Below, piece after piece: positions 1 through 61,385 of a stretch of 64,000 nt of DNA. The stretch is from Escherichia coli. GTDB lineage: Bacteria > Pseudomonadota > Gammaproteobacteria > Enterobacterales > Enterobacteriaceae. The number at the start of each line of letters is the position of its first letter. Position 1 is the stretch's first letter. Location of the stretch: the NCBI RefSeq assembly GCF_024223415.1, contig NZ_CP100500.1, one strand, 5' to 3'. Below the pieces are notes generated by a model. That model had not been told where the DNA came from. It searched no databases and saw only the letters and a program-made list of their open reading frames with translations. A program made the position numbers and the translations under genes.

Positions 1-363
<363 letters not shown>

Positions 364-459
364 GTTATGTGTTCTTTAAAAATAAGGAAATGTTTGAATT
401 TAGTTGGTAGATTGTTGATGTGGAATAAATTTGTTTAAAAACAGATATGTATGCTTAGT
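364..459 (+). promoter_or_regulatory. CRISPR leader (AT-rich, expected to hold the array promoter and integration-host-factor site)
   Basis: 96 bp AT-rich segment between cas2 stop and first repeat; position matches the E. coli type I-E leader. Promoter elements not pinpointed. Confidence 0.7.
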
Positions 460-1342
460 GTGTTCCCCGCGCCAGCGGGGATAAACCGGTCAAATCGGTT
501 ACCTTAACCTGTTGAATGTGGTGTTCCCCGCGCCAGCGGGGATAAACCGAACGGCTACGGCACCGAGGTGACAAACCAGATGTGTTCCCCGCGCCAGCGG
601 GGATAAACCGAACTCCAGGATATTGCAAACCGCATAGTGGATGTGTTCCCCGCGCCAGCGGGGATAAACCGCCGTTGCGCTGGCATCGGGTGTACCTGTT
701 GTGGTGTTCCCCGCGCCAGCGGGGATAAACCGCCGTTGCGCTGGCATCGGGTGTACCTGTTGTGGTGTTCCCCGCGCCAGCGGGGATAAACCGGGCTTAC
801 ACGCCACCATGGCATCAAGAACGATGTGTTCCCCGCGCCAGCGGGGATAAACCGATTACGACTTCCGCACGCACCCACCGTTTGTAGTGTTCCCCGCGCC
901 AGCGGGGATAAACCGTTGGGCTAGGAGGAAGAGCATCATTAACATGGGTGTTCCCCGCGCCAGCGGGGATAAACCTGAGGCGGCTAAACCGTCGCGCACA
1001 CGAGCGACGTGTTCCCCGCGCCAGCGGGGATAAACCGCGTACTGCTTACTCCGTCATCGATGTATGAGTGTGTTCCCCGCGCCAGCGGGGATAAACCGTA
1101 CGTGTCGCCGTTACAGATTTCAGTCTGTTAGTGTTCCCCGCGCCAGCGGGGATAAACCGGGCGTCCAGTGATGCTTTCTGGTGCTCGAATAGTGTTCCCC
1201 GCGCCAGCGGGGATAAACCGCACGATTTTATGTGCCGCGTTGAGGCGTGGGCGTGTTCCCCGCGCCAGCGGGGATAAACCGGGCGCACTGGATGCGATGA
1301 TGGATATCACTTAGAATTCCCCGCCCCTGCGGTAGAACACCC
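460..1342 (+). CRISPR. Type I-E CRISPR array: 14 canonical 29-bp repeats GTGTTCCCCGCGCCAGCGGGGATAAACCG, one degenerate terminal repeat, 14 spacers of 32 bp (13 unique)
   Basis: Repeats start at 460, 521, 582, 643, 704, 765, 826, 887, 948, 1009, 1070, 1131, 1192, 1253 with exact 61-bp period. Terminal degenerate repeat 1314-1342 (GAATTCCCCGCCCCTGCGGTAGAACACCC, about 19/29 identity). Repeat 9 ends in T (976) instead of G. Spacers 672-703 and 733-764 are identical. Confidence 0.98.
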
Positions 1343-1362
1343 AGCTCCCATTTTCCAACCCA

Positions 1363-2400
1363 TCAAGACGCCTTCGCCAGCTCCTTCACCAACGGTAGCA
1401 TTATCCGCATAACATCACGGCAGCGACGTTCTATTCTTCCAGGAAGTGCCTTATCAATATGCTGTTGATTATCCAGTCTTACGTCATGCCAGCTATTTCC
1501 CGCAGGGAATGCGGCTGTTTTTGCGCGTTGCTGATAACCATCCTTATTCCCAAGATTCCAGTTAGTCGCTTCCACCGAAAGTACAGCAATGCCCGCTTTG
1601 TCGAATATTTCTGCGTCATTACAACACCCAGTGCCTTTCGGATAATTTTTATTCAAACCCGGATTGGTCGTTGCGGCTATTCCGTGACTGCGCGCAATTG
1701 CCAGCGCCCTGTCGCGCGTTAATTTCCTTACTGCCTCAGGGGTTTTTACACCGCTGTTGAAATACAATTTATCGCCAACAATTAAGTTATCGAGATTAAT
1801 CACCAGCAGCGTATTTTTCTTTTCGGTGTCACTCATCCGCTTGAGTAAATTCTCAGCGCCTAATTTCCCTTCCTCTTCGCCGCTGGTCGCCACAAATCGA
1901 ATACCATACTCGGTAGGCGTATTTTTCAGGCGTTCTGCCAGTTCCAGCATGACACCTAAACCTGCGGCGTTATCATCCATTCCTTGTAACGTCAGCCCGC
2001 CGAGATTGGCATCGGCGTCAGCATCGCTCAGCGGGGCGTAAGTATCCAGATGCGCCATAATGATGATCTGCTGCGGCGCTTTGCCTTCATGAGCGGCAAT
2101 CACCGTACTTCCCGTCACGTTATGCCAGCTCTTACGATTATCGCGGGCGGTATAAATATACCGACTATTAAATGTCCGAATATCACTGCGATAACCCATT
2201 TGCTGAAACTGTTGGCGAATATAATCGGCAGATAACATTTCTGCAGGAGTTCCGGTCATGCGTCCCGGAAAGAAAGTAGCAATATGTCGTGCCTGAGTAT
2301 TAGCAAAATCGCCAGGTTTAGGTGACGAGGCGTGTACGGGGAGAATAAAGCATACGCCGAGCGCCAGGGCAGCGGTACGGTGGCGCAATGCGGAAAACAT
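1363..2400 (-). CDS. iap: Alkaline phosphatase isozyme conversion aminopeptidase
   Basis: 345 aa ORF, signal-peptide-like N-terminus, matches E. coli Iap; conserved position next to the CRISPR array. Confidence 0.92.
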   Translation of the reverse strand: MFSALRHRTAALALGVCFILPVHASSPKPGDFANTQARHIATFFPGRMTGTPAEMLSADYIRQQFQQMGYRSDIRTFNSRYIYTARDNRKSWHNVTGSTVIAAHEGKAPQQIIIMAHLDTYAPLSDADADANLGGLTLQGMDDNAAGLGVMLELAERLKNTPTEYGIRFVATSGEEEGKLGAENLLKRMSDTEKKNTLLVINLDNLIVGDKLYFNSGVKTPEAVRKLTRDRALAIARSHGIAATTNPGLNKNYPKGTGCCNDAEIFDKAGIAVLSVEATNWNLGNKDGYQQRAKTAAFPAGNSWHDVRLDNQQHIDKALPGRIERRCRDVMRIMLPLVKELAKAS

Positions 2401-2651
2401 AGTGAGTCCTTAAATACCATGCAAATTTTTTTACCGCCATAGTATGAAACTGCCGCTGCGCTAAAACAATTTCAAATCTTCCTAAACGCCCGAAATCCGG
2501 TGCCTTAAGCACTTTTTGATATTAGCTTTGCCAAATCGTTATTCCGTTAAGGAACTACTCATTCTAATTGGTAATTTCATTCGTTCTCTTACGCTCCCTA
2601 TAGTCGAAACATCTGATGGCAAGAAAATAGCGGTATTGCAAAGGAACGGTT

Positions 2652-31533: not shown

Positions 31534-32076
31534 ATGTTTACCTTTATCAAAAAAGTCATCAAAACCGGCACGGCGACCTCGTCTTATCCGCTGGAGCCGA
31601 TTGCGGTTGATAAAAACTTCCGTGGTAAGCCAGAGCAGAACCCGCAGCAGTGCATCGGCTGCGCGGCCTGCGTCAATGCCTGCCCGTCAAACGCCTTAAC
31701 GGTTGAAACTGACCTCGCCACAGGAGAGCTGGCCTGGGAGTTTAATCTCGGGCGCTGCATCTTCTGTGGACGCTGCGAAGAAGTTTGCCCGACGGCGGCA
31801 ATCAAACTGTCGCAAGAGTACGAACTGGCGGTGTGGAAGAAAGAAGACTTCCTGCAACAGTCCCGCTTCGCGCTGTGCAACTGTCGCGTCTGCAATCGTC
31901 CTTTCGCCGTCCAGAAAGAGATCGACTACGCCATTGCTCTGCTTAAGCACAATGGTGACAGCCGCGCGGAAAACCACCGCGAAAGCTTTGAGACTTGCCC
32001 GGAATGTAAGCGCCAGAAATGCCTGGTGCCGTCCGACCGTATTGAACTGACTCGCCATATGAAAGAGGCCATCTGA
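31534..32076 (+). CDS. hycF: Formate hydrogenlyase subunit 6 (Fe-S)
   Basis: 180 aa; 2x CxxCxxCxxxCP. Confidence 0.95.
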
Positions 32077-37021: not shown

Positions 37022-38032
37022 ATGACGACGATGCTGGAAGTGGCGAAGCGCGCCGGGGTTTCAAAAGCGACCGTTTCCCGCGTGCTTTCAGGTAATGGCT
37101 ACGTCAGCCAGGAGACTAAAGATCGCGTGTTTCAGGCGGTAGAAGAGAGCGGTTACCGTCCAAACTTGCTGGCGCGCAATCTGTCGGCGAAGAGTACTCA
37201 GACGCTGGGGCTGGTAGTGACCAACACGCTTTACCACGGCATTTATTTTAGTGAATTACTGTTTCATGCCGCGCGAATGGCGGAAGAGAAAGGGCGGCAG
37301 TTGCTATTGGCAGATGGTAAACACAGCGCCGAAGAAGAGCGCCAGGCGATTCAGTATCTGCTGGATCTGCGCTGCGACGCGATCATGATTTATCCGCGCT
37401 TTTTAAGCGTGGATGAAATTGATGACATCATTGACGCGCACAGTCAGCCGATAATGGTGCTTAATCGCCGCCTGCGCAAAAATAGCAGCCATAGCGTCTG
37501 GTGCGATCATAAACAGACCAGCTTTAACGCCGTGGCAGAGTTGATAAACGCCGGACATCAGGAGATTGCTTTCCTTACCGGCTCGATGGATTCCCCCACC
37601 AGCATTGAACGTCTTGCCGGGTATAAAGACGCGCTGGCGCAGCATGGTATTGCGCTCAATGAAAAACTTATCGCTAACGGTAAATGGACGCCCGCCAGCG
37701 GGGCCGAAGGGGTAGAAACGTTGCTCGAACGTGGGGCTAAATTTAGCGCGTTAGTTGCCAGTAACGACGATATGGCGATAGGTGCGATGAAAGCGTTACA
37801 CGAGCGCGGCGTAGCGGTGCCAGAGCAGGTGTCAGTTATCGGATTCGATGATATCGCAATTGCCCCCTATATCGTTCCGGCGCTCTCCAGCGTAAAAATT
37901 CCGGTGACTGAGATGATTCAGGAAATTATTGGACGGCTGATTTTTATGCTCGATGGCGGGGATTTCTCACCGCCGAAAACCTTCAGCGGAAAACTGATCT
38001 GCCGCGACTCACTCATTGCTCTTTCGCGATAA
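37022..38032 (+). CDS. ascG: LacI-family repressor of the asc operon
   Basis: Start at MTTMLEVAKRAGVSKATVSRVL (336 aa); HTH plus periplasmic-binding-like domain; intact, no insertion sequence. Confidence 0.93.
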   Translation: MTTMLEVAKRAGVSKATVSRVLSGNGYVSQETKDRVFQAVEESGYRPNLLARNLSAKSTQTLGLVVTNTLYHGIYFSELLFHAARMAEEKGRQLLLADGKHSAEEERQAIQYLLDLRCDAIMIYPRFLSVDEIDDIIDAHSQPIMVLNRRLRKNSSHSVWCDHKQTSFNAVAELINAGHQEIAFLTGSMDSPTSIERLAGYKDALAQHGIALNEKLIANGKWTPASGAEGVETLLERGAKFSALVASNDDMAIGAMKALHERGVAVPEQVSVIGFDDIAIAPYIVPALSSVKIPVTEMIQEIIGRLIFMLDGGDFSPPKTFSGKLICRDSLIALSR

Positions 38033-57815: not shown

Positions 57816-57908
57816 GGTGAGGTGGCCGAGAGGCTGAAGGCGCTCCCCTGCTAAGGGAGTATGCGGTCAAAAGCTGCATCCGGGGTTCGAATCCCCGCCT
57901 CACCGCCA
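57816..57908 (+). tRNA. serV: tRNA-Ser (anticodon GCT)
   Basis: 93 nt GGTGAGGTGGCCGAG...CACCGCCA with long variable arm and anticodon loop cuGCUaa. Confidence 0.95.
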
Positions 57909-57911
57909 TTT

Positions 57912-57988
57912 GCATCCGTAGCTCAGCTGGATAGAGTACTCGGCTACGAACCGAGCGGTCGGAGGTTCGAATCCTCCCGGATGCACCA
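57912..57988 (+). tRNA. argV: tRNA-Arg (anticodon ACG), copy 1
   Basis: 77 nt GCATCCGTAGCTCAGCTGGATAGAGTACTCGGCTACGAACCGAGCGGTCGGAGGTTCGAATCCTCCCGGATGCACCA; 3 bp after serV. Confidence 0.95.
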
Positions 57989-58123
57989 TATTCTCCGTAA
58001 CCTTCAGCGATGAAGGTATGGAAGAGGTGGCGGTACTAACCGCAGGCACCAGGGAGGATAACGTTGCTTTAGCAACGGCCCGAAGGGCGAGCCGCAAGGC
58101 GAGTAATCCTCCCGGATGCACCA
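57989..58123 (+). repeat. tRNA-array spacer module X (copy A), ending in an 18-nt tRNA-Arg 3'-end fragment (58106-58123)
   Basis: Has hairpins ACCTTC-agcgat-GAAGGT and CGTTGC-ttta-GCAACG, then ATCCTCCCGGATGCACCA identical to the tRNA-Arg 3' end. Confidence 0.7.
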
Positions 58124-58187
58124 TCTCTTACTTGATACAGCTTTAGTAGCGGTATCAAAAAATCTGCAGTAAAGTAAGTTTCCCGAT

Positions 58188-58264
58188 GCATCCGTAGCTC
58201 AGCTGGATAGAGTACTCGGCTACGAACCGAGCGGTCGGAGGTTCGAATCCTCCCGGATGCACCA
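58188..58264 (+). tRNA. argY: tRNA-Arg (anticodon ACG), copy 2
   Basis: Identical 77-nt sequence; 199-bp spacer after copy 1. Confidence 0.95.
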
Positions 58265-58326
58265 TCTCTTACTTGATATGGCTTTAGTAGCGATATCAAT
58301 ATCAGCAGTAAAATAAATTTCCCAAT

Positions 58327-58403
58327 GCATCCGTAGCTCAGCTGGATAGAGTACTCGGCTACGAACCGAGCGGTCGGAGGTTCGAATCCTCCCGGATGCA
58401 CCA
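58327..58403 (+). tRNA. argZ: tRNA-Arg (anticodon ACG), copy 3
   Basis: Identical 77-nt sequence; 62-bp spacer after copy 2. Symbol assigned by order only; could correspond to argQ. Confidence 0.9.
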
Positions 58404-61312: not shown

Positions 61313-61385
61313 AAAAAGGCCACTCGTGAGTGGCCAAAATTTCATCTCTGAATTCAGGGATGATGATAACAAATGCGCGTCTTTC
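61313..61385 (-). ncRNA. micA: MicA (SraD) small regulatory RNA
   Basis: Minus-strand GAAAGACGCGCATTTGTTATCATCATCCCTGAATTCAGAGATGAAATTTTGGCCACTCACGAGTGGCCTTTTT matches MicA from memory, including its terminator hairpin; conserved gshA-luxS location, divergent from luxS. Confidence 0.92.

What the first reader, a model, noticed from the sequence alone, without database searches (positions are those of the whole stretch)
489..1313. Thirteen unique spacers: targets and possible self-targeting are unknown
The spacers record past invaders. For example, spacer 8 (916-947, ttgggctaggaggaagagcatcattaacatgg) looks like a gene start with a ribosome-binding site. I could not search them; a chromosomal protospacer with an AAG/ATG PAM would be notable.
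Basis: inference. Interest (0 to 1): 0.3.

Follow-up and report, generated by a model that had tools for sequence, protein, structure and literature searches.

The report
E. coli CRISPR spacers target prophages
This is an ordinary Escherichia coli type I-E CRISPR array: at least 9 of its 13 different spacers match temperate phages that sit as prophages in other E. coli strains, each next to the expected ATG/AAG motif, and no self-targeting was found.

Summary
Window 460-1342 is a type I-E CRISPR array between cas2e and iap, with 15 repeats of 29 nt and 14 spacers of 32 nt. S4 and S5 are identical, so 13 spacers are unique. The flanks are 100% identical to E. coli SCU-316, which carries almost the same array.

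Nine of the 13 unique spacers match prophages in other E. coli genomes. All nine protospacers are preceded by AWG (7 ATG, 2 AAG).
- S1, S4/S5, S6, S7 and S8 hit one family of temperate myoviruses with lambda-like early and head genes and a P2-like tail. S1, S6 or S7 match about 470 of 5426 complete genomes, mostly ST131-type.
- S12 and S13 hit one lambdoid prophage.
- S11 hits a prophage with P2-type head genes.
- S3 hits a phage-family gene of unknown function.

S2, S9, S10 and S14 have no target. S14 is the conserved trailer spacer, present once in each of 4241 genomes.

Spacer 8 is not a gene start. It lies inside a tail-sheath gene (codons 38-48), and its two mismatches are synonymous.

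No spacer matches the rest of the window, or a second site in any genome carrying a related array.

All of this agrees with published work on E. coli CRISPR. It is ordinary and already known.

The parts
70..363 (+). cas2e, 97 aa, of the non-K-12 (O157:H7-type, 'cas-EO') variant; the end of cas1e overlaps its start
   Evidence: ORF. Annotated as cas2e in the identical sequence of SCU-316 and NCTC9112.
364..459 (+). AT-rich leader between cas2e and the first repeat
   Evidence: Sequence; 100% identical in SCU-316. The simple sigma-70 scan found no consensus promoter, so the direction of transcription is inferred from the position next to cas2, the degenerate repeat at the far end and the side on which the PAM lies.
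460..1342 (+). Type I-E CRISPR array (E. coli CRISPR2.1, 'A' repeat variant): 15 repeats of 29 nt with a 61-nt period
   Evidence: The repeat folds into a 7-bp GC hairpin with a 4-nt loop, -15.2 kcal/mol, z = -3.2. Annotated 'CRISPR' in related genomes.
489..520 (+). S1, the leader-proximal spacer. Targets the myovirus prophage family at the end of a small unknown-function phage gene (phrog_5191) near the terminase genes
   Evidence: 32/32 with PAM ATG in the Z0117EC0040 prophage. 30/32 (mismatches at 9 and 20) with PAM ATG in the SA186 prophage and in phage vB_EcoM-705R4.
550..581 (+). S2, no target found
   Evidence: Found only in CRISPR arrays: E. coli genomes and one metagenome contig that is itself an E. 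coli array. No hit in phages, plasmids or IMG/VR.
611..642 (+). S3. Targets a 255-aa gene of phage family phrog_17809 (unknown function), next to a decayed recombinase gene
   Evidence: 32/32 with PAM AAG in T309.Ta3; 31/32 in six further listed genomes, including ST167-named strains.
672..703 (+). S4. Targets the tail-fibre gene of the myovirus prophage family
   Evidence: 29/32 (mismatches at 4, 26, 29) with PAM AAG in vB_EcoM-569R10 and in the SA186 prophage; about 438 genomes fall in the 90-95% identity band. No exact copy in IMG/VR.
733..764 (+). S5, an exact duplicate of S4 (tandem duplication of one 61-bp unit)
   Evidence: The duplication is absent from SCU-316, NCTC9112 and metagenome contig L027.
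794..825 (+). S6. Targets the RecE-like exonuclease gene (phrog_2489) of the myovirus prophage family
   Evidence: 32/32 with PAM ATG in SA186, Z0117EC0040 and an IMG/VR contig. 14 IMG/VR contigs carry its first 24 nt. Protein family.
855..886 (+). S7. Targets a 103-aa early gene (phrog_323, D5-like regulator fragment) of the same prophage
   Evidence: 32/32 with PAM ATG in SA186. Present on 8 of the 14 IMG/VR contigs that carry S6. Protein family.
916..947 (+). S8. Targets the interior of the tail-sheath gene (codons 38-48) of a variant of the same prophage family; not a gene start
   Evidence: 30/32 (mismatches at 8 and 20, both synonymous) with PAM ATG in Z0117EC0040 and 12 other genomes. 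phrog_23 tail sheath. No exact copy in IMG/VR.
948..976 (+). Repeat 9, a variant ending in T instead of G, immediately before S9
   Evidence: The same variant is in SCU-316 and NCTC9112. PMC3737337 reports that this repeat base is copied from the 33rd position of the protospacer.
977..1008 (+). S9 (69% GC), no target found
   Evidence: Only in arrays in E. coli genomes. No hit in phages, plasmids, IMG/VR, species-representative genomes or metagenomes.
1038..1069 (+). S10, no target found
   Evidence: Only in arrays. No hit in phages, plasmids, IMG/VR or genome contigs.
1099..1130 (+). S11. Targets a tail protein gene (phrog_1228) of a prophage with P2-type head genes
   Evidence: 31/32 (mismatch at position 1) with PAM ATG in E. 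coli N1420, the only non-array hit among 5426 genomes.
1160..1191 (+). S12. Targets the replication-initiation O-like gene of a lambdoid prophage integrated next to ttcA
   Evidence: 32/32 with PAM ATG in STEC384 and STEC379.
1221..1252 (+). S13. Targets the YbcN-family gene of the same lambdoid prophage as S12, on the same strand, 5.3 kb away
   Evidence: 31/32 (mismatch at position 3) with PAM ATG in STEC384. The 'Salmonella phage S.Kent 1-2-1' hit is a CRISPR array fragment, not a target.
1282..1313 (+). S14, the trailer-end ancestral spacer; no target found
   Evidence: Present exactly once in each of 4241 of 5426 complete E. coli genomes, including K-12 and O157:H7. The plasmid-database hits are arrays. 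No IMG/VR hit.
1314..1342 (+). Degenerate terminal repeat GAATTCCCCGCCCCTGCGGTAGAACACCC
1363..2400 (-). iap, the chromosomal gene flanking the trailer end of the array
   Evidence: ORF; annotation in relatives.

Best explanation
The region is the spacer content of a standard E. coli type I-E CRISPR array: CRISPR2.1, between cas2e and iap, with the 'A' repeat variant and O157:H7-type cas genes. Shown here: at least 9 of 13 unique spacers are copies of temperate-phage DNA, and every one was taken directly 3' of an AWG motif (7 ATG, 2 AAG). Five unique spacers (six units counting the duplicate) come from one mosaic family of temperate myoviruses with lambda-like early and head genes and a P2-like contractile tail. 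S1, S6 or S7 match about 470 of 5426 complete E. coli genomes, mostly ST131-type strains. S12 and S13 come from one lambdoid phage, S11 from a phage with P2-type head genes, and S3 from a phage-family gene of unknown function. Inferred from established type I-E biology, not tested here: the array is transcribed from the leader. Cas6e then cuts at the repeat hairpins to give 61-nt crRNAs. Cascade uses these to find AWG-flanked protospacers, and Cas3 degrades the DNA. Together these steps would block infection or lysogeny by these phages. Matches with seed mismatches (S4, S8, S11, S13 against the variants found) would more likely trigger primed acquisition than direct interference. The array lineage looks static. 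All variants share the same leader-proximal S1 and differ only by internal unit duplications and losses, which fits the known H-NS-silenced, slowly evolving E. coli system.
For: Array anatomy. Repeat hairpin. cas2e and iap flanks. A complete cas3-casABCDE-cas1-cas2 operon sits upstream of the near-identical locus in NCTC9112. Window flanks are 100% identical to SCU-316. Protospacers and PAMs: S1, S3 (32), S4, S6 and S7, S8 (33), S11 (35), S12, S13 (73). AWG at 9 of 9 sites has a chance probability of (2/64)^9, about 3e-14 (own arithmetic; one search computed the value for eight sites). All eight target genes tested belong to PHROG phage families (the S13 target was not submitted), and all nine sites lie in annotated prophages or phage-gene regions. 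S1, S6 or S7 are present in 470 of 5426 genomes, median 3 places per genome. Array variants are compared. Literature: A-type repeats go with leader-A and cas-EO, CAT (= ATG) is the commonest PAM for such arrays (34 of 55, against 9 CTT), and the last repeat base is copied from the protospacer (PMC3737337). [quoted passage not shown]
Against: Four spacers (S2, S9, S10, S14) have no target in any collection searched. Three matches are imperfect (S4 29/32; S8 30/32; S1 30/32 in one variant but 32/32 in another), and S4's BLAST E-value alone is weak (0.06-0.4). It rests on the AAG PAM and on lying in the same prophage as S1, S6 and S7. No promoter-like site was found in the leader. Expression and interference were not and cannot be tested here. 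Only cas2 and the end of cas1 are in the window, so an intact effector operon is assumed from relatives. The absence of the targeted prophages from the 16 array-bearing genomes is not statistically informative: at 8.7% prevalence, 0 of 16 has P of about 0.23, and it is confounded by phylogeny.
Confidence: 0.9

Rival explanations
1. The array is an inert fossil. The spacers did come from phages, but the system is silenced (H-NS) or no longer acquires spacers, so they give no present-day protection and persist by descent only.
For: All array variants found share the same leader-proximal spacer S1 and differ only by internal unit duplications and losses: SCU-316, NCTC10444, NCTC9112 and metagenome contig L027. 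S14 is fixed in 4241 of 5426 genomes. No consensus promoter was found in the leader. The literature describes E. coli arrays as stable and silenced in the laboratory (PMC10910852; PMC3737337).
Against: The cas operon is complete in the closest relatives. Perfect matches with an interference-proficient PAM persist for S1, S3, S6, S7 and S12. None of the 16 array-bearing genomes carries a targeted prophage, though this is weak evidence. Dion et al. argue for anti-prophage activity in vivo.
Confidence: 0.35
2. One or more spacers target the host's own chromosome, as autoimmunity or gene regulation. This is the notable case the first reader hoped for.
For: Nothing positive. The four unmatched spacers and the unseen remainder of the host genome leave formal room. 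Dion et al. report self-targeting events in about 10% of E. coli genomes.
Against: The best match in the 64-kb window outside the array is 22/32. SCU-316, NCTC10444, NCTC9112 and 13 other genomes with related arrays each show only one matching place, the array, at roughly 29/32 or better. S14 occurs exactly once in each of 4241 genomes. S2, S9 and S10 occur only in arrays.
Confidence: 0.04
3. The prophage matches are chance similarities or database artefacts, not true protospacers.
For: Artefacts do occur. The best 'phage' hit for S13 (OR851156.1) and all 'plasmid' hits for S14 are CRISPR arrays in misfiled or contaminated records. S4's E-value is weak.
Against: Five spacers have 32/32 matches with E of about 1e-5 or lower in 28 Gb. 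None of the nine sites is flanked by repeats. All nine have AWG at -3 to -1, P about 3e-14. Several spacers co-locate in the same prophage. The S8 mismatches are synonymous.
Confidence: 0.01

Closest known systems
E. coli CRISPR2.1 (CRISPR1/CRISPR I) type I-E array of the 'A' repeat / leader-A / cas-EO (O157:H7-type) variant (Diez-Villasenor et al. 2013, PMC3737337)
   Same: Same locus, between cas2e and iap-cysDNC. Same repeat: the reverse complement CGGTTTATCCCCGCTGGCGCGGGGAACAC has W = A. Same 32-nt (33 with the PAM-derived G) spacers and 61-nt period. The PAM is AWG with ATG predominant (7 to 2 here, 34 to 9 in the paper). The last repeat base tracks the protospacer.
   Different: Nothing in kind. 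This copy has a tandem duplication of the S4 unit and lacks one spacer (GCGTTTCTGGCGGGGGTAGGGAACGCCCAGAA) that SCU-316 and NCTC9112 carry between S8 and S9.
Arrays of E. coli SCU-316, NCTC10444 and NCTC9112 (RefSeq complete genomes)
   Same: All 13 unique spacers are present in the same order. The T-ending repeat before S9 is identical. The cas2, leader and iap flanks are 100% identical to SCU-316 over the 1646 bases compared.
   Different: They lack the S4 duplication and carry one extra spacer. NCTC9112 has a duplicated S11 instead.
The anti-prophage spacer repertoire of natural E. coli isolates (Dion et al. 2024, PMC10910852)
   Same: Targets are almost all prophages. The fraction with a known target is about 60% there and 69% here. 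Several spacers converge on one abundant prophage species. A spacer and its prophage target are not found in the same genome.
   Different: I did not check whether the abundant prophage cluster in that paper is the same family as the ST131-type prophage found here.
E. coli K-12 type I-E system (cas-EK, T-type repeat)
   Same: Same subtype, same architecture, and the same trailer spacer S14 (31/32 in MG1655).
   Different: The K-12 repeat starts GAGTT rather than GTGTT. Its Cas2 is 81/94 identical. Its acquisition motif is AAG only, whereas ATG predominates here.

Membership tests
Type I-E CRISPR array (E. coli CRISPR2.1) | 29-nt direct repeats matching the E. coli type-2 consensus, with 32-nt spacers and a 61-nt period | tested here: met
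   14 identical or near-identical repeats plus one degenerate repeat, all spaced 61 nt apart. The consensus is quoted in PMC3737337.
Type I-E CRISPR array (E. coli CRISPR2.1) | The repeat forms the GC-rich hairpin recognised by Cas6e | tested here: met
   7-bp stem and 4-nt loop, -15.2 kcal/mol, z = -3.2. Cas6e binding itself was not tested.
Type I-E CRISPR array (E. coli CRISPR2.1) | Adjacent cas1e-cas2e and an AT-rich leader; located between cas2 and iap | tested here: met
   cas2e at 70-363, leader at 364-459, iap at 1363-2400; annotation in relatives.
Type I-E CRISPR array (E. coli CRISPR2.1) | Complete effector module (cas3, cse1, cse2, cas7, cas5, cas6e) in the same genome | not testable with these tools
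   The window starts inside cas1e. NCTC9112, which has a near-identical array and the same Cas2e protein accession as SCU-316, has the full operon.
Type I-E CRISPR array (E. coli CRISPR2.1) | Protospacers flanked 5' by the AWG PAM (CWT on the other strand) | tested here: met
   9 of 9 identified protospacers: 7 ATG and 2 AAG.
A-type (leader-A / cas-EO) variant of the E. coli I-E system | A (not T) at the second base from the leader-proximal repeat end; non-K-12 cas genes; ATG more frequent than AAG among PAMs | tested here: met
   The repeat starts GTGTT, which reads ...AACAC on the other strand. Cas2 is 81/94 identical to K-12 Cas2 (K-12 sequence from memory). PAM ratio is 7 to 2. Definitions are in PMC3737337. 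The leader-A sequence itself was not compared with a reference.
Self-targeting CRISPR array | A spacer with a matching PAM-flanked protospacer elsewhere in the same genome | tested here: not met
   No match of 23/32 or better in the window outside the array. Only one place per genome in 16 genomes with related arrays. S14 occurs once per genome in 4241 genomes. The rest of the true host genome is unavailable.
Active, currently acquiring array | Strain-specific new spacers at the leader end; expression of crRNA | tested here: not met
   S1 is the same leader-proximal spacer in the four variants whose sequences were read (SCU-316, NCTC9112, L027 and the window); the differences are internal duplications and losses. 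Expression cannot be tested with these tools.

The most novel reading that the evidence does not exclude
The most novel reading still open has two parts. First, this array lineage actively excludes one abundant prophage family, the lambda-head/P2-tail myovirus fixed in ST131-type strains and hit by five unique spacers. That would help explain why the prophage is common in strains without this array and absent from strains that have it. Second, S9, which follows a T-ending repeat, records an acquisition from a non-AWG site and so serves only for priming. Both would illustrate mechanisms that are already published rather than new ones.
Probability: 0.25. Interest if true: 0.3.

Novelty: already known. 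Interest (0 to 1): 0.12.

Why it matters
It matters little beyond annotation. The result assigns targets to 9 of 13 spacers of one E. coli array lineage. It shows five of them converging on a prophage family typical of the pandemic ST131 clone. It also reproduces published rules: the AWG PAM with ATG predominant for A-type arrays, prophage-directed spacers, and no self-targeting. The practical lesson concerns method. Naive BLAST of spacers gives false 'phage' and 'plasmid' targets, because some database records contain CRISPR arrays, so the flanks of every hit must be inspected.

Tried and rejected
1. Phage-database hit of S13 to 'Salmonella phage S.Kent 1-2-1' (31/32). Rejected: the site is flanked by CRISPR repeats, so the record is a bacterial array fragment.

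2. Plasmid-database hits of S14. Rejected: they are chromosomes filed as plasmids, or an IncHI2A plasmid carrying a cas-CRISPR-iap segment. All are arrays.

3. Exact 24-nt scans of IMG/VR for S2, S9, S10, S13 and S14 found nothing. The same scan for S6, used as a positive control, found 14 contigs. Exact scans for S4 (28 nt) and S8 (24 nt) also found nothing, so the exact source phages of those two are not in IMG/VR.

4. S9 in species-representative genomes and in metagenomes: nothing. S10 in genomes: nothing. S2 in metagenomes: one contig, which is another E. coli array variant.

5. The promoter scan of the leader found no consensus site.

6. Rfam at gathering thresholds reported no CRISPR-DR family over the array. 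This says nothing against the array, which sequence and annotation define unambiguously.

7. Spacer 8 as a gene start: rejected.

8. Primed acquisition as the cause of the multiple hits on one phage. S12 and S13 lie on the same strand, which is consistent. S1 and S7 lie on one strand of the myovirus prophage and S4 and S6 on the other, which is not clearly consistent. Left as speculation.

9. The exact-match scans cannot see protospacers with scattered mismatches, so the negative results for S2, S9, S10 and S14 are weak.

Full report
**What is in the sequence**

Window 1-2500 holds these features, in order:
- the 3' end of cas1e;
- cas2e (70-363);
- a 96-nt AT-rich leader (364-459);
- a CRISPR array (460-1342);
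- iap on the minus strand (1363-2400);
- then cysD, cysN and cysC.

The array has 14 copies of GTGTTCCCCGCGCCAGCGGGGATAAACCG at an exact 61-nt period. The copy at 948-976 ends in T. A 15th, degenerate repeat lies at 1314-1342. The 14 spacers of 32 nt occupy 489 + 61(n-1), so the finding's limits and its spacer 8 (916-947) are exact. S4 and S5 are identical, which gives 13 unique spacers. The repeat folds into the expected 7-bp GC hairpin.

**Whose array it is**

All but four of 5426 complete E. coli genomes match the 2.5-kb region. The best matches, SCU-316 and NCTC10444, annotate cas1e, cas2e, CRISPR and iap there.

The window is 100% identical to SCU-316 over 1-459 and 1314-2500. SCU-316 carries the same spacers in the same order, including the T-ending repeat. 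It differs only in lacking the S4 duplication and in having one extra spacer between S8 and S9.

NCTC9112 has the same array, with that same extra spacer and with S11 duplicated instead, and a complete cas3-casABCDE-cas1-cas2 operon upstream. A metagenome contig carries a shorter variant. Every variant starts with S1. The lineage has therefore changed by internal unit duplication and loss, not by new acquisitions.

By the definitions in PMC3737337, the repeat is the 'A' variant (...GGGGAACAC on the other strand). That variant goes with leader-A and the O157:H7-type cas genes.

**Targets**

I joined the 13 unique spacers with N linkers and searched three collections.

The phage collection gave three kinds of hit.
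- S1 matched vB_EcoM-705R4 at 30/32.
- S4 matched the tail-fibre gene of vB_EcoM-569R10 and two sister phages at 29/32.
- S13 matched 'Salmonella phage S.Kent 1-2-1'. This record is a CRISPR array fragment with repeats on both sides of the match, so it is an artefact and not a target.

The plasmid collection gave only S14 hits. All of them lie in arrays, on chromosomes misfiled as plasmids or on pIOMTU792, which carries a cas-CRISPR-iap segment.

The E. coli genome collection was the productive one.

| Spacer | Best match | PAM | Target gene or region | Example genome |
|---|---|---|---|---|
| S1 | 32/32 (30/32 in SA186) | ATG | end of a small gene of phage family phrog_5191, near the terminase genes | Z0117EC0040 |
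| S3 | 32/32 | AAG | phrog_17809, unknown function, beside a decayed recombinase | T309.Ta3 |
| S4/S5 | 29/32 | AAG | tail fibre | SA186 |
| S6 | 32/32 | ATG | RecE-like exonuclease | SA186, Z0117EC0040 |
| S7 | 32/32 | ATG | 103-aa early gene | SA186 |
| S8 | 30/32 | ATG | tail sheath, interior | Z0117EC0040 and 12 others |
| S11 | 31/32 | ATG | tail protein, prophage with P2-type head genes | N1420 |
| S12 | 32/32 | ATG | replication O-like gene | STEC384, STEC379 |
| S13 | 31/32 | ATG | YbcN-family gene | STEC384 |

- **One myovirus family (S1, S4/S5, S6, S7, S8).**
  - In SA186, S1, S4, S6 and S7 all lie in one prophage. It sits next to the tRNA-Gly/Cys/Leu cluster near pgsA and has lambda-like early, lysis and head genes with a P2-like contractile tail.
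  - The Z0117EC0040 prophage is a mosaic relative integrated at a tRNA-Ser gene. It carries S1, S6 and S8.
  - So five unique spacers, or six units, point at one phage family.
- **One lambdoid prophage (S12, S13).** Both lie in the STEC384 prophage next to ttcA, on the same strand and 5.3 kb apart.
- **How common the myovirus prophage is.** S1, S6 or S7 protospacers occur in 470 of 5426 genomes, with a median of three places per genome. Most are ST131-type strains.
- **Phage families.** All eight target proteins I tested hit PHROG phage families.

**Are the matches real?**

None of the nine sites is flanked by repeats. All nine have AWG at -3 to -1 (7 ATG, 2 AAG). By chance this has probability (2/64)^9, about 3e-14. 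The bias toward ATG is what PMC3737337 reports for A-type arrays: 34 CAT against 9 CTT among 55 protospacers.

The weakest match is S4 at 29/32. It is supported by its AAG motif and by lying in the same prophage as S1, S6 and S7.

**Spacer 8**

The protospacer in fact begins 112 nt inside a tail-sheath ORF. There it reads V-G-L-G-G-R-A-S-L-T-W. The two differences from the spacer (CTG/CTA and GCT/GCA) are synonymous. It is therefore coding sequence from a related phage's sheath gene, not a gene start.

**Unmatched spacers**

- **S2, S9, S10.** These occur only in CRISPR arrays in E. coli genomes; all 37 records were listed. Exact scans found no non-array site, though not every spacer was run against every collection:
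  - IMG/VR for all three;
  - species-representative genomes for S9 and S10;
  - metagenomes for S9 and S2.
- **S14.** It occurs exactly once in each of 4241 genomes, including K-12 and O157:H7. It is the fixed trailer-end spacer of the species, with no known target.
- **Limits of these negatives.** The S6 control scan of IMG/VR worked, so that collection can detect such targets. The exact-match scans cannot see diverged protospacers, so these negatives are weak.

**Self-targeting**

Outside the array, the best match to any spacer in the 64-kb window is 22/32. In the 16 complete genomes whose arrays share several of these spacers, the only matching place is the array. Three of them carry all 13 unique spacers (the detection limit is about 29/32).

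No self-target was found. The true host genome beyond the window could not be examined.

The absence of the targeted prophages from those 16 genomes fits immunity but carries no statistical weight. At 8.7% prevalence, 0 of 16 has P of about 0.23, and phylogeny confounds the comparison.

**Mechanism**

Shown here: the spacers are phage-derived, were taken next to AWG, and sit in a canonical I-E array beside cas1 and cas2.

Inferred from established type I-E biology:
- the array is transcribed from the leader;
- Cas6e processes the transcript at the hairpins into 61-nt crRNAs;
- Cascade recognises AWG-flanked targets;
- Cas3 degrades them.

S4, S8, S11 and S13 have mismatches at seed positions (4, 8, 1 and 3) against the phage variants found. 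Against those variants they would more likely prime new acquisition than interfere directly.

The T that ends repeat 9 is best explained by the published rule that this base is copied from the protospacer. S9 was then either taken from a site with T at -1, or a later G-to-T mutation occurred. Without a protospacer for S9 I cannot decide between these.

Whether the system is expressed is unknown. E. coli I-E systems are H-NS-silenced in the laboratory, and no consensus promoter was found in the leader.

**Comparison with what is known**

Everything matches published descriptions.
- Locus, repeat variant and PAM preference match PMC3737337.
- The prophage-directed repertoire, the roughly 60% of spacers with known targets (69% here), the convergence on an abundant prophage, and the rarity of a spacer and its prophage target in one genome match PMC10910852.
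- All 13 spacers already exist in public genomes.

The only features particular to this copy are a tandem duplication of the S4 unit and the loss of one spacer.

**Verdict**

This is an ordinary, already known kind of locus, of low interest.

Noticed in passing
window 948-976: Repeat 9 ends in T instead of G, immediately before S9. SCU-316 and NCTC9112 have the identical variant. By the published rule that this base is copied from the protospacer, S9 may have been acquired from a non-AWG site; a later point mutation is the alternative.
   Followed up: partly
window 672-764: The S4 spacer-repeat unit is tandemly duplicated (S4 = S5). SCU-316, NCTC9112 and a metagenome variant lack the duplication. 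NCTC9112 has S11 duplicated instead, and the window lacks a spacer (GCGTTTCTGGCGGGGGTAGGGAACGCCCAGAA) that relatives carry between S8 and S9. The lineage therefore varies by internal recombination, or the duplication is an assembly artefact.
   Followed up: partly
L002 (OR851156.1, 'Salmonella phage S.Kent 1-2-1', UNVERIFIED_ORG), 1480-1600: This 2.6-kb 'phage' record is a fragment of an enterobacterial type I-E CRISPR array with repeat GTATTCCCCGCGCCAGCGGGGATAAACCG. It contains a 31/32 copy of S13. A spacer BLAST that ignored the flanks would score it as a false phage target.
   Followed up: yes
L005 (NZ_LC542972.1, plasmid pIOMTU792), 1-4117: A 293-kb conjugative IncHI2A plasmid carries cas5e, cas6e, cas1e, cas2e, a 5-spacer type I-E array and iap. 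This is a stretch of the E. coli chromosomal CRISPR-Cas locus. The plasmid collection also holds whole chromosomes filed as plasmids, for example NZ_OL790696.1 at 4.8 Mb.
   Followed up: no
window 1282-1313: S14 is present exactly once in each of 4241 of 5426 complete E. coli genomes, including K-12 MG1655 (31/32) and O157:H7. It is a species-wide ancestral trailer spacer with no known target.
   Followed up: yes
window 499-1288, minus strand: Mechanical ORFs of 80-107 aa run through the array on the minus strand, with repetitive translations (...FIPAGAGNT...VYPRWRGEH...). They are artefacts of the repeats, not genes.
   Followed up: yes
window 57816-58400 and 61314-61385: Rfam finds a cluster of four tRNA genes on the plus strand and the MicA sRNA on the minus strand. 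These are ordinary E. coli core-genome features and unrelated to the array.
   Followed up: no
L030 (STEC384 prophage next to ttcA), 31818-31849 and 37160-37191: S12 and S13 are adjacent in the array, and their protospacers lie on the same strand of one lambdoid prophage, 5.3 kb apart, both with ATG. This pattern is compatible with primed acquisition of S12 after S13.
   Followed up: partly
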